A DNA stretch of 64,000 bases from an uncultured Gammaproteobacteria bacterium. GTDB taxonomy: Bacteria; Patescibacteriota; Microgenomatia; Daviesbacterales; UBA10151. The notes under the pieces were generated by a model. It was not told where the DNA came from, did no database searches, and worked only from the letters and a program-made list of their open reading frames with translations. The stretch covers positions 759 through 64,758 of the forward strand of contig CAZYBP010000001.1 in NCBI GenBank assembly GCA_964645555.1, given 5' to 3'. A program made the position numbers and the translations under genes. Positions 26,960 to 64,000 of the stretch are shown piece by piece (within the stretch, counting starts at the first letter, position 1; the number at the start of each line of letters is the position of its first letter).

Positions 26960-27808
26960 ATGAATAATCAAAAACTTAAGTTTTTATACACTGATATTAA
27001 AGATTCGTACCTGGAATTATTGAAAGACACTTTAACTCATATAATTTATGGTAATTATGAGGTAGGTGCAACGCTCTCATCCCGTTTCCTGATCGAGAAA
27101 ATAATATCAAAGATATTGGGTCTAGTACATTTAAAATTAGTATTTAATAAACCTTTTAATCTCAAAGACAGAGAATATGGAAATGACTGGCCGCTAAGCG
27201 CTCACACAATGATTGGAAAAAGACGTCTAAATAATATTCAGTTCTGCATTGAGAATATCTTAAAGGAAAAAATCCCAGGAGATTTGATTGAAGCGGGCGT
27301 GTGGAGAGGAGGAGCCAGCATTTTTATGAAAGGAGTTTTAAAAGCATGCGGAGATAACAAACGGTGTGTTTGGTTAGCGGACTCGTTCCGGGGATTACCG
27401 CCTCCGGATATTAAAATGTACCCCCAGGATAAGGGAGATATTTTTTATCAAGTTGGTTACTTAGCTGTACCGGTTGAGGAGGTAAAAAATAATTTCAAAG
27501 CATACAACCTATTGGATGATAGGGTAAAATTTTTGATTGGATGGTTTAAAGATACATTGCCAAAAGCGCCTATAGGCAAACTTGCCCTTATCAGATGTGA
27601 TGGCGATATGTACGAATCAACTATGGATATATTAGTAAATTTATATCACAAACTTTCTACTGGCGGTTATGTAATTATTGATGACTATTATTATATTCCT
27701 GCATGCAAACAAGCAGTCGATGATTTTAGGAAAAAAAACAATATAAAAGACAAAATATTTGATATTACAGATATCAAAGGGGGAATATATTGGAAAAAAT
27801 TACAATGA
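26960..27808 (+). CDS. Macrocin-O-methyltransferase (TylF/MycF) family sugar O-methyltransferase
   Basis: GDLIEAGVWRGGASIF...WLADSFRGLP...CDGDMYEST...GGYVIIDDY reproduces the conserved blocks of TylF-family MTs. Confidence 0.8.
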   Translation: MNNQKLKFLYTDIKDSYLELLKDTLTHIIYGNYEVGATLSSRFLIEKIISKILGLVHLKLVFNKPFNLKDREYGNDWPLSAHTMIGKRRLNNIQFCIENILKEKIPGDLIEAGVWRGGASIFMKGVLKACGDNKRCVWLADSFRGLPPPDIKMYPQDKGDIFYQVGYLAVPVEEVKNNFKAYNLLDDRVKFLIGWFKDTLPKAPIGKLALIRCDGDMYESTMDILVNLYHKLSTGGYVIIDDYYYIPACKQAVDDFRKKNNIKDKIFDITDIKGGIYWKKLQ

Positions 27809-36716: not shown

Positions 36717-36732
36717 TGATAGTATATATAAA

Positions 36733-43820: not shown

Positions 43821-44525
43821 ATGATTAAATTGGCGCCATCAATTAGTATAATAATACCCACCTATAATGAAGCAAGTAATATCGCCAAGATACTAAAGCG
43901 GACGAAAAAATTAGCTGATATTTACTCAATAGAAATTATAGTAGTTGACGGAGGCTCGAAAGACGGAACACCCGATATAGCAAAAAAAATAGGAGTCAAT
44001 AAACTAATTAAGCTTAAGCAAAGACGGGGAAAAGGAATTGATTTTTGGGAAGGAGTACAAGCTGCAAAAGGCGATTATGTAATCCAAATAGATGCTGATA
44101 TGCAATTTGATCCCCAGCAAATACCTTTATTTATAAAAGCATTTAATAAAGGAGCAGACGTAGTAATAGCCAGGAGGGAAAATTATAAAGAATCTCCTTT
44201 TTGGAGAACGATAGGAAATAAATCACTGTCACTTCTTACATCAATAGTTATAATGTATCGAATTCATGATGTTTTGGCAGGCTTTAAAGGGGCAAGGAGA
44301 GAAGTTATGCTTTCCTTAAAGCTAGAAGAGAAAGGTTTTATGTACGAGTCTGAGCTGGTTATTAAAACAATTAGAATGGGCTATAAATTAGCTCAAATTC
44401 CTGTCCGGTATCATAGGAGGGTGCACGAGAATTCAAAAGTTAATTTAATAAAAGACGGATTAGGATATCTCCGGTCAATCCTTTACTTTGGATTTATTAT
44501 TCCACCGCCACCCAAGCTATCTTAA
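43821..44525 (+). CDS. Glycosyltransferase family 2 (DPM1-like)
   Basis: ISIIIPTYNEASNI...VVDGGSKDGT. Confidence 0.75.
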   Translation: MIKLAPSISIIIPTYNEASNIAKILKRTKKLADIYSIEIIVVDGGSKDGTPDIAKKIGVNKLIKLKQRRGKGIDFWEGVQAAKGDYVIQIDADMQFDPQQIPLFIKAFNKGADVVIARRENYKESPFWRTIGNKSLSLLTSIVIMYRIHDVLAGFKGARREVMLSLKLEEKGFMYESELVIKTIRMGYKLAQIPVRYHRRVHENSKVNLIKDGLGYLRSILYFGFIIPPPPKLS

Positions 44526-44528
44526 ACT

Positions 44529-45242
44529 ATGACAAACATCAAACAAGGTCTTTCTCTTATCATCCCGGTCTTCAATGAGGAAAAAACAATAGAGTTAATA
44601 ATTAAAAGGTGTCACAGTCTACCTCTCGCAAAACAATTAATTGTCGTAAATGACGGATCAAAAGACAAAACTAAATCAGTTTTAGGTAAAATAAGCAAAA
44701 AGTATCCGTCAGTTACCATAATCCACCATCAAACAAATCTTGGTAAAGGAATGGCCATAAAAACAGGACTCAGTCAGGCATTGGGTAAATATGTTTTGGT
44801 TCAGGATGCAGATTTAGAATATTACCCGGAAGAAATTGTTAGATTATATGAAAAAGCCGAAGGAGCGTCGGATGGTATTGTTTTTGGCAATAGATCCGCC
44901 AATAAACAAAAGGGTTATATTCTAGCCCAACTTGGAAATTGGTATTTAAATTTACTCTTTTTTTCGCTTTTTGGATTGCAGTTGCAGGATAGTTATACAT
45001 GTTATAAATTAATACCTAGAAAAATCTGGCAGAGAATCAATTTACAAAGTAATGGCTTTGAAATTGATGCTGAACTGGTTTCTAAGCTCGGTAGAGAAGG
45101 TTATAAAATAATAGAGGTTCCCATCTCCTACCATCCTAGAAAATATTCAGAAGGCAAAAAGATAAATTGGATTGATGTAATTTGGGCAACAAAAGTTGCC
45201 TTTAAAATACGGTTTTTCACCAAGAAGGATTTGTATGAATAG
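44529..45242 (+). CDS. Glycosyltransferase family 2 (DPM1-like)
   Basis: LSLIIPVFNEEKTI...VVNDGSKDKT. Paralogous to the gene at 1..717. Confidence 0.75.
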   Translation: MTNIKQGLSLIIPVFNEEKTIELIIKRCHSLPLAKQLIVVNDGSKDKTKSVLGKISKKYPSVTIIHHQTNLGKGMAIKTGLSQALGKYVLVQDADLEYYPEEIVRLYEKAEGASDGIVFGNRSANKQKGYILAQLGNWYLNLLFFSLFGLQLQDSYTCYKLIPRKIWQRINLQSNGFEIDAELVSKLGREGYKIIEVPISYHPRKYSEGKKINWIDVIWATKVAFKIRFFTKKDLYE

Positions 45243-46380
45243 TTACAGTAAATACACAAAAGGCTTTATCAAATCATATAATGACCCCAATCTGAAAGTA
45301 TTGGAACTAGAAGAAGGAAAAGATGATTTCATAAAATTTTTTAAAAAACTTCATAAAAAATCCAAACGCAAAACAAGAATTGCCCTAATATCAATTAATT
45401 CATTATGGAAACTGATAATTTATATCGCCAGAGTATTAAAGTTAACAACTCTCAAAGTTTCTTATACCTGGATTTCACTCAATCAACTAGAACATATCGC
45501 TACTATTTCTAACTTTAAAGTTTTAGAAAGGGGTTATCGGGTAATCATGCCTAAAGATATACCTCTTGTATCAAACTTCATAAACAAATTATCTGTAAAC
45601 CTTCCCATTTTAAGAAGACTCGGTCTTATTCAATATATAATACTTACTCCTGATAAAATTACTAAACCTTCTCCTTTATCCTGCTCCATTATAGTACCGT
45701 GCTTTAATGAGGAAGATAATGTTGAAAATTGTATAAAAAGATGTCCCAAGATCGGCAAAGGAACAGAAATTATAATTGTTGATGACGGATCAACAGATAA
45801 CACATTAGAAAAGGCCAAAAAAATGGCCAAAAAAAATCCCTTTGTCAAAATCATTTCCTATAAACCAAACCGTGGTAAAGCTTATGCAGTAGAAAAAGGA
45901 TTCAATGCAGCAAAGGGAGAAATCATTATGATTTGGGACGCTGATCGAACAGTACCGGAATCGGAATTACATTTATTTTATGACGTATTAGCCGGAAACA
46001 AAGCAGATTTTGCAAACGGCACAAGACTGATTTATCCGATGGAAAATCAGGCTATGAAATGGTTAAATTTATTTGGTAATAAGATTTGCGGTACGGTATT
46101 TAGTTGGATACTTAGTACACCTATCTCCGATACCTTATGCGGGACAAAAGCTTTGTTTAAAAAAGACTACAAAAAAATCAAAATGGGTAATGAACCGTGG
46201 GGGGATTTTGATCTTTTATTCGGAGCTTCTAAACTAAACCTGAGAATACTTGAAATACCAGTACATTACCGCAAAAGAGTTGCCGGGGAATCTAAAATGA
46301 AAATATTCAAACACGGCCTGGTTTTATCTAAGATGGCTATTATCGGAACGTTAAGATTAAAATTCAATTATAAAAACTAG
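45235..46380 (+). CDS. Glycosyltransferase family 2 with about 150-aa N-terminal extension of unknown function
   Basis: The GT2 core starts at CSIIVPCFNEEDNV...IIVDDGSTDNT. The ATG at 45235 overlaps the upstream stop (ATGAATAG). Confidence 0.65.
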   Translation: MNSYSKYTKGFIKSYNDPNLKVLELEEGKDDFIKFFKKLHKKSKRKTRIALISINSLWKLIIYIARVLKLTTLKVSYTWISLNQLEHIATISNFKVLERGYRVIMPKDIPLVSNFINKLSVNLPILRRLGLIQYIILTPDKITKPSPLSCSIIVPCFNEEDNVENCIKRCPKIGKGTEIIIVDDGSTDNTLEKAKKMAKKNPFVKIISYKPNRGKAYAVEKGFNAAKGEIIMIWDADRTVPESELHLFYDVLAGNKADFANGTRLIYPMENQAMKWLNLFGNKICGTVFSWILSTPISDTLCGTKALFKKDYKKIKMGNEPWGDFDLLFGASKLNLRILEIPVHYRKRVAGESKMKIFKHGLVLSKMAIIGTLRLKFNYKN

Positions 46381-47633
46381 ATAATTTTAGGTTCAGGGAT
46401 GGGAATAATAAATTTACCTCCCCCCTCTCTAAACCACTTTTCTTTCTCCATAATATTTTGTGCATAATTCCATGCTGTAATTACAATATAGTCCGGTGTA
46501 TTACTTTTTAAAATTTCCGGTTTGACAATCAGGATATGATTACCCGGCGTAAACTTTCCTTGCTTGGAAGGGGCACTATCAGTTATATAATCAATCACCT
46601 TAGGACCAATATTGCAATATTGTAGTAAAGTCGTTGCTTTTGCCGATGCTCCATACGCTGCAATTTTTTTACCTTTTTTCTTTAACTCCCCAAGCATCTC
46701 GGTTAATTTCTTTTTTACAAGCGGAGGCCTTTGGGCAAATTTTCTATATGTTGACAATTGATCAAGACCTAATTTTTTTTCGTTTTTCAAAAACTTACTA
46801 ACAGCTTTACCTACTGGTAATGGGGCAAGTGCGTGGGATGCAAAAACCATAATCCCCCCTCCATGAGTATCAGTATGAATAATATCAATTATTTTCATTG
46901 AATGCATATTTAATAAATAGGCTAACGGCCTAACTGCATAAAAACAAATATGTTCATGATAGGTATTATCAAATTCATTATGTGTTAATAAATCTGCCAA
47001 ATACTGTACTTCAAAAACAAAAATACCCTTATCATCCAATAAATCTTTTACACCTTCGAAAATATCATGTAAAACATCCGTATGGGCGAGGGTATTATTT
47101 GATGTAATAATTCCAGCCTTACCGTATTTCTTTATAAGATTTGGTACTTTATCTTTACCAAAAAAATCGGCAATAGTTTCGATACCTTCCTTATTTGCAA
47201 TTTTGGCGATATTTTTTGCCGGGTCTATTCCTAAAACTCTGGCTCCTAATCTTTTAAACGGCTTGAGTAAAACCCCGTCATTGCTTCCTATATCAACAAC
47301 GAGTTTCCTTGATTGATCCGGAAAGCGGCTGAAAACTTCTTTGGCATATTCCTCAAAGTGTTTGACAAGCATCGGTGAGGTTGAAGAAAAATAGGCATAA
47401 TTACTAAAAATGACCGACCTGTCTACTATATGTAAAAGCTGGGCTAACTTACAGTTTCTGCAAAAATAAACTTCAAGAGGGGCTTTAAATTCTTTTTGTC
47501 TAAGTTGCTTTCCAGTCAGATAAGAATTAGCCGGAGCTGCTTTGCCAAGCGATAAATAACAAGTTAATTTCTTCTCTCCGCAGATAAGACACACATTACT
47601 TTTTTTGTATATTTTTTTTATAGATAAAGTCAT
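46377..47633 (-). CDS. NDP-hexose C-methyltransferase (TylCIII/NovU/EvaC family)
   Basis: N-terminal C-x2-C...C-x2-C zinc ribbon, the DIGSNDG motif, about 418 aa with a C-terminal domain, as in sugar C3/C5-methyltransferases. Confidence 0.75.
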   Translation of the reverse strand: MTLSIKKIYKKSNVCLICGEKKLTCYLSLGKAAPANSYLTGKQLRQKEFKAPLEVYFCRNCKLAQLLHIVDRSVIFSNYAYFSSTSPMLVKHFEEYAKEVFSRFPDQSRKLVVDIGSNDGVLLKPFKRLGARVLGIDPAKNIAKIANKEGIETIADFFGKDKVPNLIKKYGKAGIITSNNTLAHTDVLHDIFEGVKDLLDDKGIFVFEVQYLADLLTHNEFDNTYHEHICFYAVRPLAYLLNMHSMKIIDIIHTDTHGGGIMVFASHALAPLPVGKAVSKFLKNEKKLGLDQLSTYRKFAQRPPLVKKKLTEMLGELKKKGKKIAAYGASAKATTLLQYCNIGPKVIDYITDSAPSKQGKFTPGNHILIVKPEILKSNTPDYIVITAWNYAQNIMEKEKWFREGGGKFIIPIPEPKII

Positions 47634-50067: not shown

Positions 50068-50138
50068 CTGAAGTGAAGTTAGTATAGCTTTAGCCTAAAT
50101 TGGTGTCAAGAATTACTTTTTTGATATACTCAACTTTC

Positions 50139-51215
50139 ATGCTTAACAAAAATACATATGATGCGGTAGTAATAGGCGGGGGGTTTTATGGCTGCATTAT
50201 AGCTCTTTTTTTAAAAAGAAAATTTAAAAGGGTACTTCTGATAGAAAAAGGCTCTGACTTGCTACTGAAAGCTTCTTATAATAATCAAGCAAGAATTCAT
50301 AACGGCTATCATTACCCCAGAAGCCATATGACTGCTTTAAGATCACACATAAACTATTCCCGATTTATCTCGGATTTTAAAGATGCAGCTTGTGATAAAT
50401 ACTTAATGATTTATGCCATCGCTGCCAATAATTCAAAAGTTACAGCCGGCCAGTATGTTAAATTTTGTAAATCAATCGGAATCCCCCTTTCGCCTGCAGC
50501 TGATAACATCCGTAAGCTTTTTAACGACAGACTCATTGAGGAAGTATTTGTAGTTGATGAGGCAGTGTTTAATGCCGGAAAGATACGGGATATTCTCAAG
50601 AAAAAACTCTTCTCAGCCGGAGTAAAGGTTATCTATCGAAAAGAAGTTACTAAAGTTACATCAGCAGGACAATTATTAACTTTATATCTTAAAAATGATA
50701 TCACTATAAATAGTAAAAGCGTTTATAACTGCACTTATTCGGCAATTAATCAGATTTTAACTAATTCTTCTTTACCTAAATTACCTTTAAAACACGAGCT
50801 GACAGAAATGCCTCTTATTCAAATGCCCGGAAGATTAAAAAATATGGGTATTACGGTTATGGACGGACCCTTTTTTTCTATAATGCCTTTCCCCGATCTA
50901 AAGATGCATACAATTCACCATGTCCGCTATACACCACACTATTCTACTTTAGATAACTTAGATAACCCCACAAAACCAAACTCTGAATACACTTTTATGA
51001 TTAAAGATGCAATACGTTATATTCCCGAGTTAAGCAAAGTCAAGTATAAAACATCTATTTATGAAACAAAATCTGTCCTTATTGCAGATGAAATAACTGA
51101 CGCCAGACCTATTTTATTTAAAAAAGATTATGTAATAAAAAATTTCCATGTAATTTTGGGTGCAAAGATTGACAATATCTATGACGTTGTTGAAGAAATT
51201 GATAAAAACCTTTAA
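50139..51215 (+). CDS. FAD/NAD(P)-binding oxidoreductase
   Basis: YDAVVIGGGFYGC dinucleotide-binding motif. Start moved to the ATG at 50139 so the Rossmann motif is N-terminal. Confidence 0.45.
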   Translation: MLNKNTYDAVVIGGGFYGCIIALFLKRKFKRVLLIEKGSDLLLKASYNNQARIHNGYHYPRSHMTALRSHINYSRFISDFKDAACDKYLMIYAIAANNSKVTAGQYVKFCKSIGIPLSPAADNIRKLFNDRLIEEVFVVDEAVFNAGKIRDILKKKLFSAGVKVIYRKEVTKVTSAGQLLTLYLKNDITINSKSVYNCTYSAINQILTNSSLPKLPLKHELTEMPLIQMPGRLKNMGITVMDGPFFSIMPFPDLKMHTIHHVRYTPHYSTLDNLDNPTKPNSEYTFMIKDAIRYIPELSKVKYKTSIYETKSVLIADEITDARPILFKKDYVIKNFHVILGAKIDNIYDVVEEIDKNL

Positions 51216-58317: not shown

Positions 58318-58944
58318 ATGTATAATATCGTCATGATTAAAGCTATAATATTTGATTTAGATGGTGTGCTAATTGACGCAACAGAATGGCATTATGAAGC
58401 ATTAAATGATGCACTGAAAATTTTTGGTTATGAATTAGGCCTAGAAGAACACTTAACTACCTATAATGGGTTACCCACAGCCGAAAAGCTCAAGCTACTA
58501 TCGGAGAAAAAAGGGCTTCCTTTGGGTTTACATGAAATTATCAAAGTAATGAAAAGAAAATTAACAGATGAAAGAGTCAGACAACTTTGCAGTCCCAGTC
58601 ACGAAAAACAAATCATGCTCACAAATTTGAAACATAAAGGGTATAAACTTGCCTGTTGTTCCAATGCACAAAAATATTCGGTCATGAATATGTTAGAGTC
58701 TGCAAAGATTGATCATTTTTTTAGTGTTATCATGGGAAATGATGAAGGTTATAAACCTAAACCAGCGCCGGATATATATTTGGCAACATTTAAAGAGCTT
58801 AAAGTTCCTCCAAACGAAGTTATAATTGTTGAGGATGCTTCACACGGCATAGAAGCTGCCAAAAGAAGTGGGGCGAAGGTAATTGCAGTACGTGGTTTCG
58901 AAGATGTAAACTTATCATTGTTTTTGGATTTAAACTTAGTATAG
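58318..58944 (+). CDS. HAD-superfamily hydrolase (beta-phosphoglucomutase/phosphatase subfamily)
   Basis: IIFDLDGVLIDAT motif I (DxDG) and C-terminal EDASHGIEAAKRSG (motif IV region). Confidence 0.7.
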   Translation: MYNIVMIKAIIFDLDGVLIDATEWHYEALNDALKIFGYELGLEEHLTTYNGLPTAEKLKLLSEKKGLPLGLHEIIKVMKRKLTDERVRQLCSPSHEKQIMLTNLKHKGYKLACCSNAQKYSVMNMLESAKIDHFFSVIMGNDEGYKPKPAPDIYLATFKELKVPPNEVIIVEDASHGIEAAKRSGAKVIAVRGFEDVNLSLFLDLNLV

Positions 58945-59703
58945 ATGAAAAACAGCCGTAATTTAAACATTGTTATACCGATGTCTGGAGGTGGCGCCAG
59001 CTTTACTGCTGCCGGTTATACTTTCCCAAAACCCTTAATAGACATTAACGGCAAACCGATGATTCAGTTAATAATTGAAAATTTAACTCCTAAATTTATT
59101 CATCAATTTATATTGATTCCTAAAAAAGAACATTTCGATAAATACTCCCTGCATCAAGTATTTAATAATGTAGCCAAGGGAAATTTTATTACAATTTTGC
59201 AAACTGCACCGACACAGGGAGCAGCGTGCACTGTTTTAAATGCCATCGATTACATCAAGAGTGACACGGAGTTAATCATTGCCAATGCCGACCAAATAAT
59301 TGATGTTGATATCAATAAATTTATTCAGTTTGCCAGAAAATCGAAAGCGGACGGAGTAATCATGACTTTTAATTCTCAACACCCTAAGTGGAGTTATGCC
59401 AGAGTTGATAAAAAAGGGCGGGTCTTAGAGGTAGCGGAAAAAAAGGTTATATCGGATCAGGCAACGGTTGGAATTTATTATTTTAAAAAGGGTTCGGATT
59501 TTGTAACCTCCGCTTTCTCTATGATTGAAAAAAATATCAGGTTTAATAATGATTTTTATGTTTGCCCTACCTTTAATGAAATGATTCTTGCCGGAAAAAA
59601 TATTATCAATTGGGAAATAAAACAATCTCAAATGCATGGCCTGGGTACACCTGAAGATTTAAATAAATATTTGTCTAAGTTAGAACAAAAAACCAAAAGA
59701 TGA
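58945..59703 (+). CDS. Sugar-phosphate nucleotidyltransferase (NTP_transferase fold)
   Basis: VIPMSGGGASF...PKPLIDINGKPMI matches the (I/V)PMAG-G-RF / KPL...GKPMI signature. 252 aa. Confidence 0.6.
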   Translation: MKNSRNLNIVIPMSGGGASFTAAGYTFPKPLIDINGKPMIQLIIENLTPKFIHQFILIPKKEHFDKYSLHQVFNNVAKGNFITILQTAPTQGAACTVLNAIDYIKSDTELIIANADQIIDVDINKFIQFARKSKADGVIMTFNSQHPKWSYARVDKKGRVLEVAEKKVISDQATVGIYYFKKGSDFVTSAFSMIEKNIRFNNDFYVCPTFNEMILAGKNIINWEIKQSQMHGLGTPEDLNKYLSKLEQKTKR

Positions 59704-60470
59704 AAATTATCATTCCGATGGCGGGTAAGGGTTCTAGGTTTTTAGATGCAGCAAACTTAAATCCTGAATATAAAAAGCCAAAACCTTTAATTAAAATACT
59801 GGGTAAACCGATGATCGCCTGGGCAATTGATTCCCTTGCAAAGTTTAAAGTAAAACCCGCCGGTTACATCTTCATTTGCCGTAAGGATCATGAGGATGAA
59901 TTTAAAATCTCTCAATCATTAAAGAATCTATTTGGCAGTCAGATTAAAATAATTTTAATTGATCAAATAACGAGGGGTGCTGCGGAAACTGTCTTGAAGG
60001 CTGAAGAATATATAAATACAGATGAAGATATTTTAATTTCTGACTCAGACCATTATTTTGACGGTAGTTTCCTATATGACAAAATCCGCAGTAAAGATTC
60101 TAAAACGGCGGGCATCATTCCGGTTTTCCAACCCCCTGATCAGGACCCAAAATGGAGTTTTTCTTTAGTTGAGAAAGCTGACGTAATTACAGCAGTAGGA
60201 GAAAAGGATAAAGAGTTAGCTGCCAAGGGAGCACTGGCTAATATTGGTGGTTATTATTTTACTCATGGCAATGTTTTTGTTAAAGAAGTGAAAGAGGCCA
60301 TTTTAAAAAATCATTTAACAGGTGATGAGGGCAAAAAAGAATTTTATGTGGCACCAATTTATCAAAGGCTAATTAATAAAGGAATGAAGATTGTGGCAGC
60401 AATTACCCCCAGGGTTTGGGGTTTAGGTACCCCAAAAGATGTTGAATATTTTGAGAAAAATTTTATCTAA
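59700..60470 (+). CDS. Sugar-phosphate nucleotidyltransferase (paralog of the preceding gene)
   Basis: IIPMAGKGSRF...KPKPLIKILGKPMI. 256 aa. Start overlaps the previous stop (ATGA). Confidence 0.6.
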   Translation: MKIIIPMAGKGSRFLDAANLNPEYKKPKPLIKILGKPMIAWAIDSLAKFKVKPAGYIFICRKDHEDEFKISQSLKNLFGSQIKIILIDQITRGAAETVLKAEEYINTDEDILISDSDHYFDGSFLYDKIRSKDSKTAGIIPVFQPPDQDPKWSFSLVEKADVITAVGEKDKELAAKGALANIGGYYFTHGNVFVKEVKEAILKNHLTGDEGKKEFYVAPIYQRLINKGMKIVAAITPRVWGLGTPKDVEYFEKNFI

Positions 60471-61443
60471 ATCCCTGGTAGCCCTGATAGCAAACTCTTG
60501 CCAATTCCAATACATCATCATGCATAGGACCATTTGTACCTATCGCAACCTGAGTTGATTCATTTACAGAATGTCCATTAACATCTGTAAATTTTCCACC
60601 GGCTTCAATAATTGCCAAACCTCCGGCAGCCAGGTCAAAGAAACCTCCTACTGCATCAGTTAAAGTTAGTCTGGCTGAACCTTTAGCAACCTTTAGCTGC
60701 TGGTCAATATTGCTCCCGCTCATCCTAAAACCTAAATTATTACCAGCTAGATCAACCAAACCCGCCATAAAAGTAAACTTAGAATCTCTGGTTTTTGAAT
60801 TAAACAAAGCATCAATGTAAGCTATACCGCCCACTAAAGTTGGGGCTTTGGAAACCTCTATCTGTCGGCAATCAGTGGTCATAAATAAACCTTCAACTTT
60901 GAGTCCCGAGGGGCTTCCCCAAAGATCTTCTAATTCTTTTTCCCCTGCCAATCTATACAGAAAGGCTCCTTTTCCAGCCACTGCTACAACTAATTCTCTT
61001 TCAAAGGGATGACAAATAACAGCTGCATATGGCCTCTTGCTGCTGTAAACAGCAATGCCAACTGTTGAGTAACGCTGCCCTTCTGCGTAGCTTGATGTTC
61101 CATCCAACGGATCCACATGCCAAGCATTACCTTCACTTGCCGTACCTTTTTCGTCGCCGCTTTCTTCTTCATTAATTCTGTCTTCCGGAAACTGATCGCG
61201 GATCAATCTCTTGATTACAGTACCCGAGTGAGTATCGGCCACCGTTTTAGGAGTGTCTCCATCTTTAGCTTTATACTCAACTTTTAAAACCTCAGGACTG
61301 GCACCATGAATAGCCAATACTTCTCTTGCTCCCTCAATGGCGGCAGCTGCTGCAATAGTAACTCTTGGATCGGAAAGACCTATGGTCTGCAATCTCTCAT
61401 GAGTTTCATTTAGTAAAGATGCACGTTCCGGATTAACTGACAT
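60463..61443 (-). CDS. Inositol-monophosphatase-family phosphatase (IMPase/FBPase fold)
   Basis: WHVDPLDGTSSY, the W-x-(V/I)DP(I/L)DGT metal-binding signature, plus upstream acidic EE residues. Confidence 0.65.
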   Translation of the reverse strand: MSVNPERASLLNETHERLQTIGLSDPRVTIAAAAAIEGAREVLAIHGASPEVLKVEYKAKDGDTPKTVADTHSGTVIKRLIRDQFPEDRINEEESGDEKGTASEGNAWHVDPLDGTSSYAEGQRYSTVGIAVYSSKRPYAAVICHPFERELVVAVAGKGAFLYRLAGEKELEDLWGSPSGLKVEGLFMTTDCRQIEVSKAPTLVGGIAYIDALFNSKTRDSKFTFMAGLVDLAGNNLGFRMSGSNIDQQLKVAKGSARLTLTDAVGGFFDLAAGGLAIIEAGGKFTDVNGHSVNESTQVAIGTNGPMHDDVLELARVCYQGYQGFR

Positions 61444-61540
61444 ACAAAGGGTATGTTAGCATAATATAATACTTGGTACAACTATAAGCTAAACAATTTA
61501 TTGTTGAGTACTATTAAACCTCTATGCTATTATCATTTAA

Positions 61541-62389
61541 GTGAACCAGATAAAAGTTATTTCTCACCGTGGGGGATTCCTACCGGAGGGGCCTATACCT
61601 ACCGTGCAAAATCAATATAAATTGCCGGAGAATACTTTGGAGGCATTTGAAAGAGCTTTCCAAAACGGATGGGGTATTGAGACAGATGTTAGGCTCACAG
61701 GTGATGGAAATTTTATTATCATCCATGACGCAGATATAGTTAGGTTTTCAGGAAATCAGGGTGTAATTGATCAAATGACTGCTTCTCAAATCCAAAAGGT
61801 TGGTTTTAAAACAAATCCCAGTTTTAAAATCCCCGCCTTAGACGAACTCTTTGAACTTACCCAAAAGTATAGTCAAAAAAACCAACTGCCTTTCATTGCC
61901 TTTCAAATTAAACGAGGTAGTAACCCAAAAAGCGGAGTCGAAGTTGGAGAAGCAATCGCAAACGGAATGCAAAAATTTAATTTGCAAACAAGCATTGTCT
62001 TTGATGCAACATTGGAAGAAGCTAAACAATTGCATCGCGAATTTCCCTGGCTTAATTTGTCCGTATCGGTTGGTGAAGAAAATTACAGTCCTACTATTTA
62101 TACACCCTCTCAAGTACTATCAGATGAATTCAGCACCGTTTATACTTCTGTCTGGGCAGATGAATGGAAAAAGCCTTATTCTATATACAAAAAGCGATTA
62201 TTTGAGAACCTACGTAATGTTTACAAGGGCAGGATTGATGTTATCTCACCTGAACTCCATTACAATGAAGATCATCCTACTGCCAGAGATTTAGCCAAAT
62301 TAAAAGCTCTTTGGCAAGAAATTATCAGTTGGGATATTGCAGATGGAATTTGCACTGATTATCCAACAACACTGCAATTGCTTACATAA
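61541..62389 (+). CDS. Glycerophosphodiester phosphodiesterase (GDPD) family protein
   Basis: HRGG...ENTLEAFERAFQNGWGIETDVRLTGDGNFIIIHD, the HR-x-ENT-x-FE-x-D-x-HD pattern of GDPD. Start is GTG in the sequence. Confidence 0.65.
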   Translation: MNQIKVISHRGGFLPEGPIPTVQNQYKLPENTLEAFERAFQNGWGIETDVRLTGDGNFIIIHDADIVRFSGNQGVIDQMTASQIQKVGFKTNPSFKIPALDELFELTQKYSQKNQLPFIAFQIKRGSNPKSGVEVGEAIANGMQKFNLQTSIVFDATLEEAKQLHREFPWLNLSVSVGEENYSPTIYTPSQVLSDEFSTVYTSVWADEWKKPYSIYKKRLFENLRNVYKGRIDVISPELHYNEDHPTARDLAKLKALWQEIISWDIADGICTDYPTTLQLLT

Positions 62390-62413: not shown

Positions 62414-63583
62414 ATGACTGGCTCATTTACTAAAGGTAAGGGACTTACCTTAATCCCTAAAAATATTGATAACCTATTTCGTCTTAGTCCCAAAATTAAG
62501 GAAGAAAGTTTGGATTATGTCCATCTTAAAAAGTTTGTAGAAAAAAGAAAATTTGCACCCATTCTTTTAAAAGAATGCTTCTTTGTAATAAAGCCCAAAG
62601 GGTATTTAACTATTGATTATAAACCTTCAAAACAGATTAATTTTATATCTTTAGAAGAATTACTTTGGTGGTTATTTAGAGGAAACTACACCATTATCTT
62701 ACACAAAGAAGGTGAAATTAACCGTTTGATCATTCAAAAAAAGAAAACTGTTTTTGCAAAAGAAGACAGTATTGATAACTGGTCTTTTGGCATTATCACA
62801 AACGGAGACAGGGATGACTGGATGGAAATGATCATAGAATCAATTAAAAAGCAAAAGATCCCTCATTATGAAATTATCATTTGCGGCAAATACAGAAAAC
62901 GCCCGGAAAAAAATATAACTTACATTCCCTTTAGCGAAAGAGCGGACAGGGGATGGATTACCAAAAAAAAGAATTTAATAGTAGAAAAAGCAAAATATGA
63001 AAATCTTTGTATGATTCATGACCGCCTTGTTTTAAATTCAAACTGGTATCAGGGCATGAAAAAATACGGAAATGCTTTTGAGCTGCTCGGTTGCGTTCAA
63101 AGACAAAGTAACGGAGAACAGGCGGGAGACTGGCTGACTTGGGGAGGTCCATTATATAGCTTTTATAAAATAGCCGGGATGGAATATTCAGACTGGGATT
63201 ATAATACCTATCTGTCAGGGCAGTTAGTAATTATTAAAAAAAGAATATATGAAAAGGTTTTATGGGATGAGACAACTTTTTGGATACCTAAAACCAAACG
63301 CGACCTGGTGGCAGACGGAGATTTTAGTTTTAGGGCCAGAGATTTAGGACATTTAATCAGGTTTAACCCCTACTCTTCCTGCTTGGCGCTTTCCTGGCGC
63401 CACGGACATGTGCCGCTGCGTTATGACCCCACCAAAGGGATTATTCCCGATATGTTAATTCGAAGAACTATCCGGCTTTTCGGAAGAAGGTTTCATAATA
63501 TTCAACCAATCAATTGGCTTGCTCTTAAAATATTAGCTGTTTTAGTAAAAACTGGTGTCTATCAAAAAATAGTCTCCAAATAA
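62414..63583 (+). CDS. Hypothetical protein (possible divergent GT-A-like enzyme)
   Basis: 389-aa ORF with coding-like composition. The internal WSFGIITNGDRDDW...YEIIICG segment weakly resembles a GT-A nucleotide-binding core. No confident family assignment. Confidence 0.4.
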   Translation: MTGSFTKGKGLTLIPKNIDNLFRLSPKIKEESLDYVHLKKFVEKRKFAPILLKECFFVIKPKGYLTIDYKPSKQINFISLEELLWWLFRGNYTIILHKEGEINRLIIQKKKTVFAKEDSIDNWSFGIITNGDRDDWMEMIIESIKKQKIPHYEIIICGKYRKRPEKNITYIPFSERADRGWITKKKNLIVEKAKYENLCMIHDRLVLNSNWYQGMKKYGNAFELLGCVQRQSNGEQAGDWLTWGGPLYSFYKIAGMEYSDWDYNTYLSGQLVIIKKRIYEKVLWDETTFWIPKTKRDLVADGDFSFRARDLGHLIRFNPYSSCLALSWRHGHVPLRYDPTKGIIPDMLIRRTIRLFGRRFHNIQPINWLALKILAVLVKTGVYQKIVSK

Positions 63584-63595
63584 GACCAATATGTC

Positions 63596-64000
63596 ATTTC
63601 TAATTCCAGCTGCCATTATTTTTTTGATTAGCCTCTTTACTTTTTATCCGAGTTTTTCCTTGGGGTTGTTTGGGGATGACTGGCTGGAACTTTGGATGTA
63701 TATGCATTATTTCGGACCGCAAGCAACTCCTGGCATAACCAATCCTTTTAGTTATTTTCTAAGTGGGTATGGCCCTTATGGTACTACTATGGCCTTAATT
63801 TATAAGTTCTTTGGACAAAATCACAGTGTTTATTATCTTTTCTCATACATATTCAGACTGTCTGCCGCTTTTGCCATCTGGCCATTGGTGAACTATTTAA
63901 CCGGCAGTAAATTGGCTGCCTTCTATGGATCATTATTTTTGTCTATCACTTTTATTGGATTGCAGACTACCGATTGGACATTTAATTTAACATCATACCT
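63596..64000 (+). CDS. Family-B polytopic membrane protein (GT-C-fold candidate), 5' partial at window end
   Basis: LGLFGDDWLELWMYMHYFGP matches the LFGDDW motif of 17233.., 20787.. and 9468... Truncated by the window edge. Confidence 0.55.

What the first reader, a model, noticed from the sequence alone, without database searches (positions are those of the whole stretch)
58318..62389. HAD mutase/phosphatase, two tandem nucleotidyltransferases, an IMPase-family phosphatase and a GDPD: possible polyol- or inositol-phosphate headgroup module
At the right edge the locus switches from GTs to small-molecule phosphate chemistry. These genes are a beta-PGM-like HAD (DLDGVLIDAT), two paralogous roughly 250-aa NTP-transferases (IIPMAG.GSRF), an inositol-monophosphatase-family enzyme (WHVDPLDGT) and a glycerophosphodiester phosphodiesterase. 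That combination resembles pathways that make CDP-activated polyols or inositol (CDP-glycerol/ribitol for teichoic acids, CDP-inositol for di-myo-inositol phosphate) rather than ordinary NDP-hexoses. It suggests phosphodiester-linked substituents on the glycan. Two tandem paralogous nucleotidyltransferases imply two different activated headgroups.
Basis: inference. Interest (0 to 1): 0.5.

Follow-up and report, generated by a model that had tools for sequence, protein, structure and literature searches.

The report
Unusual activated-sugar module in CPR bacterium
Five real genes at the edge of a large cell-surface glycan locus in a tiny uncultured (Candidate Phyla Radiation) bacterium belong to a conserved but uncharacterised cassette that probably makes and attaches an unusual nucleotide-activated sugar, more likely a ketose- or pentose-type unit than the inositol or teichoic-acid-style headgroup first proposed.

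Summary
All five genes exist at the stated coordinates. They lie on both strands, so they are not one operon. The core is a tightly packed operon, HAD–NT1–NT2. In 16 related Microgenomates loci the NT pair is present in 15. A HAD is present in 11, and an FGGY kinase replaces it in 4. A GDPD lies within 10 kb in 12, a homolog of the next ORF (U389, 62414–63583) in 9, and the IMPase-family gene in 5. The two nucleotidyltransferases are not RmlA/GalU-type, TarI/IspD-type, TagD-type or IPCT-type. By sequence and predicted structure they are closest to PDB 4EVW, which I assign to the BcbE clade. The only functional data for that clade link it to adding a fructose (ketose) side chain to capsules. 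In other phyla the same tandem, sometimes fused, NT pair sits beside ketose/pentulose-phosphate enzymes. NT1 has lost the signature catalytic Arg in every ortholog and is probably a non-catalytic partner. U389 is a divergent GT-A glycosyltransferase. The window has no inositol-phosphate synthase and no CDP-alcohol, TagF or LicD transferase. "Unusual non-hexose-1-P activation" is plausible. Inositol and "two headgroups" are not supported. The substrate remains unknown.

The parts
58318..58944 (+). HAD-IA sugar-phosphate phosphatase-like protein (208 aa). First gene of the core operon.
   Evidence: Pfam HAD_2 133.9 bits. Below the beta-PGM cut-offs: 93.7 vs 189.4 for the equivalog and 106.6 vs 153.35 for the subfamily. 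Best PDB matches are the TM_1254 sugar phosphatase, phosphoglycolate phosphatase, beta-PGM and CbbY. The beta-PGM cap motif KGVSR is replaced by YNGLP. An ortholog is present in 11 of 16 CPR loci.
58945..59703 (+). NT1: 4EVW/BcbE-clade nucleotidyltransferase-fold paralog (252 aa) that lacks the signature Arg. Probably a non-catalytic or modulatory partner.
   Evidence: PF00483 60 bits. Best PDB match is 4EVW, E 4.9e-17. The glycine-rich loop reads GGGASF, and every ortholog has GxG[TSAG][SA]F. The other active-site positions are kept. The clade has NJ bootstrap 99.
59700..60470 (+). NT2: 4EVW/BcbE-clade nucleotidyltransferase (256 aa) with an intact GxGSRF...K signature. The likely catalytic subunit.
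   Evidence: PF00483 45.6 bits. Best PDB match is 4EVW, E 6.1e-13. AF2 pLDDT 93.8. Foldseek best hit is 4EVW, E 1.3e-18, TM 0.76/0.79. It is 60-93% identical across Daviesbacteria, Levybacteria and Blackburnbacteria. Bootstrap 100.
60463..61443 (-). IMPase/FBPase-superfamily phosphatase (326 aa), convergent with NT2. A loosely linked accessory phosphatase.
   Evidence: PF00459 118.8 bits. No equivalog cut-off is reached for HisN, SuhB, CysQ or FBPase/IMPase. Only the N-terminal half aligns with solved IMPases. The motifs EEE, WHVDPLDGT and DLAAGG are visible in the sequence. Orthologs lie near the module in L005, L007, L009, L088 and L093. GC is 0.432 against 0.351 for the window.
61541..62389 (+). 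Glycerophosphodiester-phosphodiesterase-family protein (282 aa) with intact catalytic motifs. Recurrent partner of the NT pair.
   Evidence: PF03009 60.3 bits, over the N-terminal part only. Best PDB match is the GDPD 2pz0, E 1e-12. The motifs HRG, ENT, ExD and HD are present in the sequence. A GDPD lies within 10 kb of the NT pair in 12 of 16 CPR loci. A small protein with a GDPD-like motif (c23) accompanies the NT pair in distant phyla.
62414..63583 (+). U389: divergent GT-A-fold (GT2-like) glycosyltransferase with an extra N-terminal domain. The candidate committed transferase of the module.
   Evidence: No Pfam hit. AF2 pLDDT 87.1, pTM 0.84. Foldseek PDB hits are K4CP, RmlT, TarP, SpsA, GlfT2 and WrtF at E about 1e-8. 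H202 and R204 are invariant and D203 is at least 90% conserved, at what appears to be the DxD position. Named homologs among the 120 hits listed are CPR bacteria and DPANN archaea. It is operonic with the kinase/HAD or NT2 in L003, L009, L010, L090 and L093.
63590..64000 (+). Start of a hydrophobic multi-pass membrane ORF that runs off the window. Possibly a GT-C/PMT-like glycosyltransferase.
   Evidence: Open frame seen by translating 63501-64000. PMT_2-like proteins follow the module in L005 and L008. Its family was not tested.

Best explanation
This is a conserved Microgenomates cassette that probably makes a nucleotide-activated, non-standard sugar unit and attaches it to the envelope glycan built by the surrounding 60-kb locus.

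Proposed flow (all steps inferred unless marked as shown):
1. A phosphorylated sugar, most plausibly a ketose or pentulose/pentose phosphate or bisphosphate from central metabolism, is trimmed to the right monophosphate. The HAD phosphatase would do this, and in some genomes the IMPase/FBPase-family, Cof-type HAD or His_Phos_1 phosphatase. Sister genomes supply the phosphate with an FGGY (xylulokinase-like) kinase instead.
2. NT2 couples the sugar phosphate to an NTP. NT2 has a complete nucleotidyltransferase active site (shown at the level of sequence and predicted structure). NT1 is its tandem paralog and has lost only the signature Arg. It probably acts as a non-catalytic partner in a hetero-oligomer, as in GlgC/GlgD or the plant ADP-glucose pyrophosphorylase large subunit.
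3. U389, a divergent GT-A glycosyltransferase, transfers the activated unit.
4. The role of the GDPD is unknown. It is clearly linked to the module. It might hydrolyse a phosphodiester by-product such as a cyclic sugar phosphate, or edit the product.

The logic resembles the kinase, phosphatase, nucleotidyltransferase route to NDP-heptoses (HddA/GmhB/HddC).

Sub-claim probabilities:
- NT2 is an active NTP:sugar-phosphate nucleotidyltransferase: about 0.75.
- NT1 is a non-catalytic partner: about 0.5.
- The substrate is ketose/pentulose-derived: about 0.4.
- U389 is the cognate transferase: about 0.5.
For: Clade:
- Both NTs match 4EVW best by sequence.
- NT2 matches 4EVW best by predicted structure (E 1.3e-18, against about 1e-14 for GalU, RmlA, IPCT, MurU and GlmU). 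All top 50 hits are nucleotidyltransferases and none is a glycosyltransferase.
- NT1 and NT2 align over their full length with Vibrio and Providencia 4EVW-type proteins (26-28% identity, E 1e-15 to 1e-22).
- They share the WS[FY], AEK and [DE][FL]Y..P.[YF]N motifs.

Functional anchors for the clade:
- P. multocida bcbE and bcbG mutants lose the fructose side chain (PMC13552107).
- A 'bcbE-like' Vibrio ORF, annotated 'capsular biosynthesis protein', carries IPR016873 (PMC11641403).
- The gammaproteobacterial cassette is small HAD, a ~525-aa protein with a weak APH-kinase hit, a 4EVW-type protein, then WavE or another partner.
- The three-gene cassette also occurs in E. coli kps capsule and O-antigen clusters.

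Partner genes of the tandem NT pair in other phyla:
- ribulose-phosphate 3-epimerase, which passes its equivalog cut-off
- xylulokinase-like FGGY kinase
- PRK-family kinase
- a HAD whose best match is ribulose-1,5-bisphosphate 5-phosphatase
- class II aldolase family
- Zn-MDR dehydrogenase
- xylose-isomerase-like TIM barrel

Physical coupling:
- NT-NT fusion in L013 and NT-NT-GT2 fusion in L021.
- The NT1 Arg loss is conserved in all 7 HAD-type orthologs sampled, while the other catalytic positions are kept.

Synteny in 16 CPR loci: the counts are given in the observation check, and phosphatase types vary between loci.

U389 has a GT-A fold.
Against: - No member of this NT clade has a demonstrated biochemical activity, so the substrate and the nucleotide are unknown.
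- I did not compare NT1/NT2 directly with the P. multocida BcbE sequence. The link goes through 4EVW-type proteins, shared annotation and my recollection that these correspond to the BcbE family.
- Deep branching among CPR NTs, gammaproteobacterial 4EVW-type proteins and the distant A/B pairs is unresolved (bootstraps 30-62).
- The closest relatives of the window differ in their accessory genes. L001 has neither IMPase nor GDPD within 10 kb, and L088 has IMPase but no GDPD.
- This window has no kinase, epimerase or reductase adjacent to the module, so its substrate may differ from that in the distant loci.
- U389 has H-D-R at what appears to be the DxD position, so its chemistry may be atypical.
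- NT1 may still be active using another basic residue.
- Gene-neighbourhood counts are not phylogenetically independent.
Confidence: 0.5

Rival explanations
1. The NTs are cytidylyltransferases that make CDP-activated polyols (glycerol, ribitol, arabinitol or glucitol phosphate), possibly through a CDP-ketose intermediate. These are then installed as phosphodiester-linked substituents, teichoic-acid style. The GDPD and IMPase would process phosphodiester and phosphomonoester intermediates.
For: - Characterised pathways activate ketose phosphates as CDP-ketoses and then reduce them to CDP-polyols: HS5.18/HS5.17 and Mnp1/Mnp2 (PMC10918830).
- Distant tandem-NT loci carry a Zn-MDR dehydrogenase, a ribulose-phosphate 3-epimerase and a TIM-barrel isomerase. 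From my own knowledge, this resembles TarJ-type ribulose-5-P reduction.
- Kinase-type CPR loci have a xylulokinase-like FGGY kinase.
- An SDR lies just downstream of NT2 in L001 and near it in L088.
- A phosphodiesterase-family gene is the most consistent accessory gene, in 12 of 16 loci.
- NT2 gives a weak IspD hit (20.6 bits).
Against: - Neither NT reaches the PF01128 threshold. There is no PF01467 hit, and no TarI or IspD structure appears at E<0.01 in the PDB sequence searches.
- No ORF of 150 aa or more in the window has a TagF, LicD, CDP-alcohol phosphatidyltransferase or Stealth domain.
- The operonic transferase candidate has a Leloir GT-A fold.
- In L021 the NT pair is fused to an ArnC-like polyprenyl-phosphate glycosyltransferase. 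That implies a glycosyl donor, not an alditol-phosphate donor.
- The only genetics for the clade concern a glycosidically linked fructose.
Confidence: 0.2
2. CDP-inositol / di-myo-inositol-phosphate-like chemistry. One NT would be an inositol-1-phosphate cytidylyltransferase, and the IMPase-family enzyme would dephosphorylate the phosphorylated product.
For: - An IMPase-family gene is adjacent to the NTs.
- T. maritima IPCT (4jd0) appears among NT2's structural neighbours at E 4e-14.
- There are weak NCBIfam hits to IPCT/DIPPS.
Against: - The IPCT/DIPPS scores are 19.4 and 22.8 bits against a cut-off of 580.
- 4jd0 is not distinguishable from GalU, RmlA, MurU or GlmU in the fold ranking.
- The window has no inositol-3-phosphate synthase and no CDP-alcohol phosphatidyltransferase (DIPPS) domain.
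- IMPase is the least conserved partner (5 of 16 loci), and the slot it occupies in L009 is filled by a Cof-type HAD in L003.
- The IMPase superfamily also includes sugar bisphosphatases (FBPase/IMPase model hit, E 3.9e-13).
Confidence: 0.03
3. Ordinary components that happen to be adjacent. The NTs make common NDP-hexoses for the neighbouring glycosyltransferases, the IMPase is a housekeeping SuhB/HisN/CysQ, and the GDPD serves lipid-headgroup scavenging, which CPR bacteria need.
For: - Both NTs pass the general PF00483 threshold, and their best NCBIfam models are rmlA_long and archaeal GlmU.
- CPR genomes are gene-dense.
- The five genes lie on both strands.
- The IMPase gene has a different GC content.
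- L001, a close relative, lacks IMPase and GDPD near the operon.
Against: - Scores are far below every equivalog cut-off.
- 4EVW is the best match by a wide margin.
- GDPD (12 of 16), U389 (9 of 16) and IMPase (5 of 16) recur near the pair in varied orders and orientations.
- The NT pair and a protein with a GDPD-like motif co-occur even in Clostridia, Planctomycetota and Omnitrophota.
- NT2 is 60-93% conserved across candidate classes. That is unusual for a redundant NDP-hexose enzyme in a variable glycan locus.
Confidence: 0.1
4. The BcbE-like proteins are glycosyltransferases, as NCBI's name 'glycosyltransferase family 2 protein' implies. On this reading NT1 and NT2 would transfer sugars rather than activate them.
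For: - NCBI and UniRef names for 4EVW-type proteins.
- bcbE is required for fructose addition.
- The nucleotidyltransferase and GT-A folds are related.
Against: - NT2 has the nucleotidyltransferase signature GxGSR(x)nK.
- Both NTs pass PF00483.
- All top 50 structural neighbours of NT2 are pyrophosphorylases.
- A separate GT-A protein (U389, or WavE in Vibrio) accompanies the NT.
Confidence: 0.07

Closest known systems
4EVW / BcbE-type 'capsular biosynthesis protein' family. This covers InterPro IPR016873 (BcbE, predicted), V. cholerae RC9 PDB 4EVW and P. multocida BcbE. From memory only, it also covers E. coli K4 region-2 orf1/KfoH.
   Same: - A single-domain nucleotidyltransferase fold of 240-270 aa.
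- 4EVW is the best sequence and structure match.
- Shared N-terminal (I/V)(I/V)PMAG..SRF...PK motif and the WS[FY], AEK and [DE][FL]Y..P.[YF]N motifs.
- Encoded next to a HAD phosphatase and a dedicated transferase inside surface-glycan loci.
   Different: - Only 26-28% identity.
- The CPR proteins come as a tandem paralogous pair, one of which lacks the Arg. Gammaproteobacteria have a single copy next to a ~525-aa protein with a weak kinase signature.
- The HAD is a 208-aa capped HAD-IA here, against a 126-aa capless HAD there.
- The transferase is U389, not WavE.
- GDPD and IMPase partners were not seen in the gammaproteobacterial cassettes examined.
- The CPR proteins still pass PF00483, while the V. 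cholerae protein does not (14 bits).
NDP-heptose pathway: HddA or HldE kinase, then the GmhB HAD phosphatase, then the HddC or HldE nucleotidyltransferase.
   Same: - The logic of kinase, then HAD phosphatase, then nucleotidyltransferase, which moves a phosphate to the position that gets nucleotidylated.
- HddC-like structures (6jq8, 5xhw) are NT1's next-best PDB sequence hits (E about 3e-8).
   Different: - The HddC equivalog is not reached: 31.9 bits against a cut-off of 300.
- There is no GmhA isomerase and no GHMP kinase.
- The HAD is subfamily IA rather than the GmhB type (IIIA).
- This window has no kinase.
CDP-ketose to CDP-polyol pathways: C. jejuni HS5.18/HS5.17 (CDP-6-D-fructose to CDP-6-D-glucitol), S. 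pneumoniae Mnp1/Mnp2 and, from memory, AbpA/AbpB.
   Same: - Nucleotidylation of a ketose phosphate for a surface glycan.
- In related loci the NT genes are associated with reductases (SDR or MDR) and pentulose-phosphate enzymes.
   Different: - Those NTs belong to the IspD family, PF01128. NT2 scores 20.6 bits (cut-off 27) and NT1 has no hit.
- This window has no reductase adjacent to the module.
- The partner transferase here has a GT-A glycosyltransferase fold.
Catalytic/regulatory paralog pairs in the sugar-phosphate nucleotidyltransferase superfamily: GlgC/GlgD, plant ADP-glucose pyrophosphorylase small and large subunits, GalU/GalF. This comparison rests on established knowledge.
   Same: Tandem paralogs in which one copy has lost a catalytic residue in the glycine-rich loop while keeping the fold and the ligand-binding residues.
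   Different: - No hetero-oligomer has been demonstrated here.
- The family and substrate are different.
- In distant lineages both copies keep the Arg.

Membership tests
4EVW / BcbE-type family (IPR016873) | Closest relative among solved or characterised nucleotidyltransferase-fold proteins is 4EVW | tested here: met
   phmmer against PDB: NT1 E 4.9e-17 and NT2 E 6.1e-13 to 4EVW. The next-best hits are 2.6e-8 and 6.6e-3. Foldseek on the NT2 model: 4EVW E 1.3e-18, the rest about 1e-14.
4EVW / BcbE-type family (IPR016873) | Clade motifs: N-terminal PMAG..SRF...PK, WS[FY], AEK, and C-terminal [DE][FL]Y..P.[YF]N | tested here: met
   All are present in NT2. NT1 has all except the Arg of SRF.
4EVW / BcbE-type family (IPR016873) | Match to the InterPro/PIRSF signature, and direct homology to P. 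multocida BcbE | not testable with these tools
The link rests on a 'bcbE-like' IPR016873 ORF annotated 'capsular biosynthesis protein' in a Vibrio strain (PMC11641403), on the same generic name being used for 4EVW-type proteins, and on my recollection of CDD GT2_BcbE_like.
4EVW / BcbE-type family (IPR016873) | Required for ketose (fructose) side-chain addition | not testable with these tools
   Genetic evidence exists only for P. multocida (PMC13552107). It cannot be assessed for an uncultured CPR bacterium.
Sugar-1-phosphate nucleotidyltransferases (PF00483; RmlA, GalU, GlmU, RfbF, HddC equivalogs) | Pfam gathering score | tested here: met
   NT1 60 bits and NT2 45.6 bits against 21.2.
Sugar-1-phosphate nucleotidyltransferases (PF00483; RmlA, GalU, GlmU, RfbF, HddC equivalogs) | NCBIfam equivalog cut-off for any named enzyme | tested here: not met
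   Best scores: rmlA_long 67.5 and 47.8 against 320; Arch_glmU 50.5 and 51.4 against 292; HddC 31.9 against 300; galU 24-28 against 327.
Sugar-1-phosphate nucleotidyltransferases (PF00483) | Catalytic signature G-x-G-[ST]-R ... K | tested here: inconclusive
   NT2 has GKGSRF...KPKP and meets it. NT1 has GGGASF, with Arg replaced by Ser and the Lys retained, so it does not. The Arg loss is conserved in all 7 orthologs.
TarI / IspD / HS5.18-type cytidylyltransferases (PF01128) | Pfam gathering score | tested here: not met
   NT2 scores 20.6 against 27. NT1 has no hit. ispD TIGR00453 scores 17.4 against 181.
TagD / TarD glycerol-3-phosphate cytidylyltransferase (PF01467) | CTP_transf_like domain | tested here: not met
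   No hit for NT1 or NT2 at E<=0.01. The predicted fold is RmlA-like.
IPCT / DIPPS (CDP-inositol pathway) | IPCT equivalog score, plus a companion CDP-alcohol phosphatidyltransferase and an inositol-phosphate synthase | tested here: not met
   NF041135 scores 19.4 and 22.8 against 580. No PF01066 or MIPS domain was found in any window ORF of 150 aa or more.
beta-Phosphoglucomutase (TIGR01990 / TIGR02009) | Curated cut-offs, and the cap-domain KG(V/I)SR distal-phosphate motif | tested here: not met
   Scores are 93.7 against 189.4 and 106.6 against 153.35. In the alignment to L. lactis beta-PGM, YNGLP sits where KGVSR is. The role of Arg49 is from my knowledge of the beta-PGM literature.
Inositol monophosphatase superfamily (PF00459) | Pfam gathering score and metal-binding motifs | tested here: met
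   118.8 bits against 27. EEE, WHVDPLDGT and DLAAGG are visible in the sequence. No SuhB, HisN, CysQ or FBPase equivalog is reached.
Glycerophosphodiester phosphodiesterase (PF03009) | Pfam gathering score and the catalytic HR(G), EN(T), ExD and HD motifs | tested here: met
   60.3 bits against 23.6, covering residues 26-106 only. The motifs are in the sequence. No equivalog is reached (42.7 against 264).
GT-A fold, GT2-like glycosyltransferases (for U389) | GT-A fold | tested here: met
   AF2 pLDDT 87. Foldseek hits are K4CP, RmlT, TarP, SpsA and GlfT2 at E about 1e-8, with 259 hits at E<=1e-3.
GT-A fold, GT2-like glycosyltransferases (for U389) | Pfam GT2 model and a canonical DxD motif | tested here: not met
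   No Pfam GT2 hit even at E<=1. The conserved triad at what appears to be the DxD position is H202-D203-R204. I assigned that position by inspecting strand order, not by a structural superposition.

The most novel reading that the evidence does not exclude
The 4EVW/BcbE-clade nucleotidyltransferases, with their obligatory phosphatase (and a kinase where needed), form a widespread and unrecognised route to nucleotide-activated ketofuranoses or other pentulose-derived donors. An example route is ketose phosphate, then ketose bisphosphate, then ketose 2-phosphate, then NDP-ketofuranose, parallel to the NDP-heptose pathway.

This would answer the open question of what donates fructofuranose and xylulofuranose to bacterial capsules and O antigens. 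CPR bacteria and DPANN archaea would use a heteromeric (NT1/NT2) version, with a lineage-specific GT-A transferase (U389), to decorate their envelopes. The GDPD-family partner would recycle the cyclic phosphodiesters that such labile furanosyl nucleotides shed.
Probability: 0.15. Interest if true: 0.8.

Novelty: new variant of a known kind. Interest (0 to 1): 0.5.

Why it matters
CPR bacteria and DPANN archaea depend on cell-surface contact with hosts, yet their envelope glycans are chemically unknown. This cassette is well conserved: NT2 is 60-93% identical across several candidate classes, inside otherwise variable glycan loci. That suggests a specific sugar substituent matters to these organisms.

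More generally, the 4EVW/BcbE clade has thousands of members in pathogens, including the V. cholerae core-OS cluster, E. coli capsule and O-antigen clusters, and P. multocida type B. It has no known enzymatic activity. According to a 2019 review, the activated donors of ketose residues and Ribf in E. coli O antigens are unknown.

The cross-phylum association with ketose/pentulose-phosphate enzymes found here gives a short, concrete substrate list to test. The Arg-less NT1 and the natural NT-NT fusions give a testable prediction of a heteromeric enzyme.

Tried and rejected
- Looking up the window's own proteins to find the source contig and read beyond the right edge failed. NT2 and the 100%-identical P0241 are not in the position index.
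- tRNA and Rfam scans of the window found nothing.
- The promoter and terminator scan of 57.4-64 kb gave 23 promoter-like sites against 21.9 expected, and 2 terminator-like sites against 5.2 expected. It is uninformative for operon boundaries.
- The pneumococcal CDP-2-glycerol (Gtp1-3) lead went nowhere. The only paper held gives no family information.
- A literature search on Patescibacteria, teichoic acid and nucleotidyltransferase returned no papers.
- BLASTP of the gammaproteobacterial cassette partners (126-aa HAD, 527-aa protein, WavE, 301-aa protein) against the window's HAD, IMPase, GDPD and U389 found nothing significant. The cassettes share only the NT and the general logic.
- The 65 Bacteroidota 'single-copy' loci from the genome scan (about 30% identity, 333-aa proteins) sit in a different, conserved housekeeping-like neighbourhood. 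I set them aside as another subfamily and used two as an outgroup.
- I tried to use E. coli O20/O137 as a chemical anchor. The review says the O20 structure does not fit its galF-gnd cluster, and the O137 structure was not available.
- Source names of cluster members are generic and never say BcbE.
- The AFDB fold library was unavailable.
- The first bootstrap script timed out and was re-implemented.
- I considered and rejected reading the HAD as a true beta-phosphoglucomutase.

Full report
**1. Observation**

| Gene | Coordinates | Strand | Length | Motif |
|---|---|---|---|---|
| HAD | 58318-58944 | + | 208 aa | FDLDGVLIDAT |
| NT1 | 58945-59703 | + | 252 aa | VIPMSGGGASF |
| NT2 | 59700-60470 | + | 256 aa | IIPMAGKGSRF |
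| IMPase-family | 60463-61443 | - | 326 aa | WHVDPLDGT |
| GDPD | 61541-62389 | + | 282 aa | – |

All pass their Pfam gathering scores. NT1 and NT2 are paralogs (34% identity, E 2e-36).

Two corrections are needed. Second, the genes are not one operon:
- HAD, NT1 and NT2 abut or overlap.
- The IMPase gene is convergent with NT2, with an 8-nt overlap.
- GDPD is divergent from IMPase.
- GDPD is followed, co-directionally, by a 389-aa ORF with no Pfam hit (U389, 62414-63583).
- After U389 comes the start of a hydrophobic membrane ORF that runs off the window.

The window has 35% GC and comes from a Patescibacteria (CPR) Microgenomates genome close to Candidatus Daviesbacteria (best NT2 hit 93% identical). 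No tRNA or Rfam feature is present.

**2. What the proteins are at family level**

None of the five reaches any curated NCBIfam equivalog cut-off.
- The NTs' best models are rmlA_long (67.5 and 47.8 bits against 320) and archaeal GlmU.
- TarI/IspD (PF01128) is below threshold for NT2 (20.6 against 27) and absent for NT1.
- The IPCT/DIPPS model scores 19-23 bits against 580.
- No TagD-type domain is present.

Against all PDB sequences, both NTs hit 4EVW best. 4EVW is an uncharacterised structural-genomics 'nucleoside-diphosphate-sugar pyrophosphorylase' from Vibrio cholerae. The E-values are 4.9e-17 and 6.1e-13, far ahead of HddC-like proteins, RfbF, RmlA and LicC.

A confident AlphaFold model of NT2 (pLDDT 93.8) again matches 4EVW best (E 1.3e-18, TM 0.76/0.79). 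GalU, RmlA, GlmU, MurU, IPCT and KdsB follow in an undifferentiated group near 1e-14. All top 50 hits are pyrophosphorylases, not glycosyltransferases.

The other three proteins:
- **HAD.** It is a HAD-IA enzyme whose nearest solved relatives are a sugar phosphatase (TM_1254), phosphoglycolate phosphatases, beta-PGM and the xylulose-bisphosphate phosphatase CbbY. It lacks the beta-PGM cap motif KGVSR, so a phosphatase role is more likely than a mutase role. The role of Arg49 is from my knowledge of the beta-PGM literature.
- **IMPase-family protein.** It keeps the metal-binding motifs but aligns with solved IMPases only over its N-terminal half.
- **GDPD.** It keeps the HR, EN, ExD and HD catalytic motifs.

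**3. Conservation of the neighbourhood**

I collected loci around NT2 relatives from long contigs, species-representative genomes and metagenomes. I scored them with tblastn and BLASTP. The 16 CPR loci have NT2 relatives at 44-83% identity:

| Feature within 10 kb of the NT genes | Loci (of 16) |
|---|---|
| Tandem NT pair | 15 |
| HAD directly upstream | 11 |
| FGGY kinase (closest to xylulokinase) in place of the HAD | 4 |
| GDPD | 12 |
| U389 homolog | 9 |
| IMPase-family gene | 5 |

U389 is often operonic, lying directly upstream of the kinase or HAD, or directly downstream of NT2.

In the kinase-type loci the slot just downstream of NT2 holds a Cof-type HAD in L003 and the IMPase-family gene in L009. 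In L093 a GDPD sits there, followed by the IMPase gene. His_Phos_1 genes lie elsewhere in L003, L009 and L095, and in L095 one lies between the two NTs. So a phosphatase step seems to be required, and different phosphatase families may supply it.

For a single-copy gene in an assumed ~1-Mb genome, about 2% co-occurrence is expected by chance. The counts are not phylogenetically independent, but gene order and orientation vary between loci, which argues for retention rather than simple inheritance. The closest relatives differ in accessory genes: L001 has neither IMPase nor GDPD nearby, and L088 has IMPase only.

**4. The NT pair**

All seven NT1 orthologs in HAD-type loci have lost the Arg of the G-x-G-[ST]-R signature (GGGASF, GSGTSF, GAGTSF, GAGSSF, GEGTSF, GRGGAF). 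They keep the downstream Lys, the Mg-binding Asp, the 'EK' Lys and the C-terminal Asp. NT2 always keeps the full signature. In this superfamily that Arg contacts the NTP phosphates and is needed for catalysis. That is established for GlmU and RmlA, and its loss marks the modulatory subunit of plant ADP-glucose pyrophosphorylase (my knowledge).

Tandem pairs of the same broad clade also occur in:
- DPANN archaea
- Saganbacteria
- Schekmanbacteria
- Planctomycetota
- Clostridia
- Omnitrophota

In those lineages the pairs form two old paralog groups (bootstrap 91 and 85). They are fused into a single polypeptide in L013 (NT-NT) and in L021 (NT-NT-GT2, where the GT2 is closest to ArnC-type polyprenyl-phosphate glycosyltransferases). 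The fusions argue that the two NTs work together physically, rather than making two unrelated donors. Deep branching among CPR NTs, 4EVW-type proteins and the distant pairs is unresolved (bootstraps 30-62).

**5. Clues to the substrate**

Partner genes of the distant pairs are consistently ketose/pentulose-phosphate enzymes:
- ribulose-phosphate 3-epimerase (passes its equivalog cut-off, 217.6 against 212.6)
- a Zn-MDR dehydrogenase
- a xylose-isomerase-like TIM barrel
- a class II aldolase-family protein, directly upstream of the NT in about 13 metagenome loci
- a membrane-fused PRK-family kinase
- a HAD whose best model is ribulose-1,5-bisphosphate 5-phosphatase
- B12-radical-SAM enzymes
- a small protein with a GDPD-like AHR...EIDIR...HHDP motif

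The 4EVW-type proteins form a large family (4,322 homologs at E<=1e-10). NCBI calls them 'capsular biosynthesis protein' or 'GT2 family protein'.

In V. cholerae the 4EVW gene lies in the wav core-oligosaccharide cluster, within a conserved cassette:
- a small HAD
- a 527-aa protein with a weak APH-kinase hit
- the 4EVW-type protein
- WavE

The first three genes recur in Providencia and V. chaetopteri; WavE follows in V. chaetopteri, while Providencia has an unrelated 301-aa protein there. The HAD, ~525-aa protein and 4EVW-type protein also occur in 134 of 5,426 E. coli genomes. There they sit in kps capsule region 2, or right after galF in the O20/O137 cluster.

A Vibrio paper annotates a 'bcbE-like' ORF of this kind with InterPro IPR016873 (PMC11641403). 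A 2026 study shows that P. multocida bcbE and bcbG mutants make a type B capsule that lacks its fructose side chain (PMC13552107). E. coli K4, whose capsule is fructosylated chondroitin, loses the fructose when kfoE is deleted (PMC8858990). That the kps-linked cassette in L170 corresponds to K4 orf3-kfoE-orf1 is my recollection of the K4 gene order, not a tested result.

A review states that the nucleotide donors of Ribf and xylulofuranose in E. coli O antigens are unknown (PMC7685785).

Together these point to activation or handling of a ketose- or pentose-type sugar rather than a hexose-1-phosphate. No enzyme of this clade has been assayed, and I could not compare NT1/NT2 with the P. multocida BcbE sequence itself.

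**6. The transferase and the rest of the locus**

U389 models confidently (pLDDT 87.1). Its core is a GT-A, GT2-like fold (K4CP, RmlT, TarP, SpsA and GlfT2 at E about 1e-8). It has an extra N-terminal domain and a conserved H-D-R where a DxD is expected. Its named homologs are CPR bacteria and DPANN archaea.

The rest of the window encodes:
- many GT2 and GT4 enzymes
- three AftD-like GT-C proteins, plus a weaker fourth match
- small ArnC-like GT2s
- a Wzx-type flippase
- SDRs
- UDP-glucose dehydrogenase
- UDP-GlcNAc 2-epimerase
- a TylF-like O-methyltransferase and a sugar C-methyltransferase
- a carbamoyltransferase
- an asparagine-synthase-like enzyme
- two FAD oxidoreductases

No ORF of 150 aa or more has a TagF, LicD, CDP-alcohol phosphatidyltransferase, Stealth or inositol-phosphate synthase domain. 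So the machinery that a CDP-polyol or CDP-inositol model needs is not visible, whereas Leloir and polyprenyl-phosphate-dependent glycosyltransferases are abundant.

**7. Best explanation and rivals**

- **Most likely (about 0.5).** The cassette is a dedicated supply-and-transfer module for an unusual activated sugar. A phosphatase (the HAD, and sometimes an IMPase-family or other phosphatase) produces the right sugar monophosphate. NT2, probably with NT1 as a non-catalytic partner, nucleotidylates it. U389 transfers it. The logic parallels the kinase, GmhB, HddC route to NDP-heptoses. The GDPD is a genuine partner of unknown role.
It remains a live rival, because characterised pathways do nucleotidylate ketose phosphates and reduce them to CDP-polyols (PMC10918830). 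Those enzymes are IspD-family members, which these NTs are not.
- **Inositol chemistry (about 0.03).** Not supported.
- **Ordinary NDP-hexose enzymes plus coincidental housekeeping genes (about 0.1).** Unlikely, given the synteny and the clade assignment.
- **The NT-fold proteins are themselves glycosyltransferases (about 0.07).** Unlikely, given the signature motif and the structural neighbours.

**8. Novelty and interest**

All component superfamilies are known. The 4EVW/BcbE family has an InterPro entry, a crystal structure and recent genetics. What appears undescribed is the CPR/DPANN version:
- a tandem pair with an Arg-less member
- a capped HAD-IA or an FGGY kinase
- a lineage-specific GT-A
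- a GDPD, and variable phosphatases

The cross-phylum association of the clade with ketose/pentulose-phosphate enzymes also appears undescribed. I rate this a new variant of a known kind, with moderate interest (0.5). It will not surprise a glycobiologist that a CPR glycan locus encodes odd nucleotide-sugar enzymes. It does give a concrete handle on two open questions: the biochemical activity of BcbE-type proteins, and the donors of ketofuranose residues.

Noticed in passing
window 62414-63583 (+): U389 has no Pfam hit, but its model has a GT-A glycosyltransferase core plus an extra N-terminal alpha/beta domain. A conserved H202-D203-R204 triad sits where a DxD is expected. Named homologs among the listed hits come from CPR bacteria and DPANN archaea.
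   Followed up: partly
window 60463-61443 (-): The IMPase-family gene has GC 0.432, against 0.351 for the window and 0.345-0.359 for the HAD, NT1 and NT2 genes. This may reflect separate ancestry or a composition bias (the protein is Ala/Gly-rich).
   Followed up: no
window 10964-14386, 22488-25316, 27828-28793, weakly 3679-6378 (all -): Three ORFs match the AftD-type GT-C domain (arabinofuranosyltransferase, polyprenyl-phosphate-sugar dependent), and a fourth matches weakly, below the gathering score. The window also has small ArnC-like GT2s (1-717, 43821-44525, 44529-45242), two FAD oxidoreductases (36574-38151, 50100-51215) and several SDRs. This raises the possibility of a lipid-phosphate-linked pentofuranose pathway reminiscent of the mycobacterial DPA pathway.
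   Followed up: no
L021 9989-12328; L013 708-2291: Natural gene fusions. In an Omnitrophota MAG the fusion is NT-NT-GT2, with an ArnC-like polyprenyl-phosphate GT. In a DPANN archaeon it is NT-NT. The second domain in L013 has a degenerate glycine loop (AGDMRDF).
   Followed up: partly
L014, L015, L016, L017, L129, L159, L163: In Saganbacteria, Schekmanbacteria, Planctomycetota and Clostridia the tandem NT pair sits in a recurring set: Zn-MDR dehydrogenase, ribulose-phosphate 3-epimerase, xylose-isomerase-like TIM barrel, small GT2, a 205-aa protein with a GDPD-like motif, and often B12-radical-SAM genes and large membrane proteins. This looks like an uncharacterised conserved glycan-modification system.
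   Followed up: partly
L003 8420-9994; L095 (between the NTs): In Levybacteria-type loci a B12-binding radical SAM gene (L003) or a His_Phos_1 phosphatase/mutase gene (L095) is inserted between the two NT genes.
   Followed up: no
L005 10786-11217, L007 4594-, L088 (after NT2): A small HIT-family-like protein with an HxHxH motif directly follows NT2 in three CPR loci but is absent from this window. A 114-aa protein that I labelled cupin-like, without testing the family, also recurs in L005, L008, L011, L096 and L100.
   Followed up: no
L171 (E. coli O20:H12, NZ_CP062855.1 1839807-1842519): The O20/O137-type O-antigen cluster starts, right after galF, with the cassette of small HAD, 529-aa protein and 4EVW-type protein. 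A 2019 review says the published O20 structure does not fit this cluster. The cassette may encode an unrecognised substituent.
   Followed up: partly
L167 (V. cholerae, 5050-8685): The 4EVW structural-genomics protein is encoded in the wav LPS core cluster, between a 527-aa protein (weak APH-kinase hit, N-terminus reminiscent of a degenerate NT motif) and WavE. From memory, V. cholerae core oligosaccharide contains fructose.
   Followed up: partly
window 26960-27808 (+), 46377-47633 (-), 19010-20710 (-), 39152-41014 (-): The window has a strong TylF-type O-methyltransferase (325 bits), a sugar C-methyltransferase (Methyltransf_14/13), a carbamoyltransferase and an asparagine-synthase-like amidotransferase. 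The glycan made by this locus is probably heavily tailored.
   Followed up: no
window 63590-64000 (+): A hydrophobic multi-pass ORF begins 7 nt after U389 and runs off the window end. PMT_2-like GT-C proteins follow the module in Blackburnbacteria loci.
   Followed up: no
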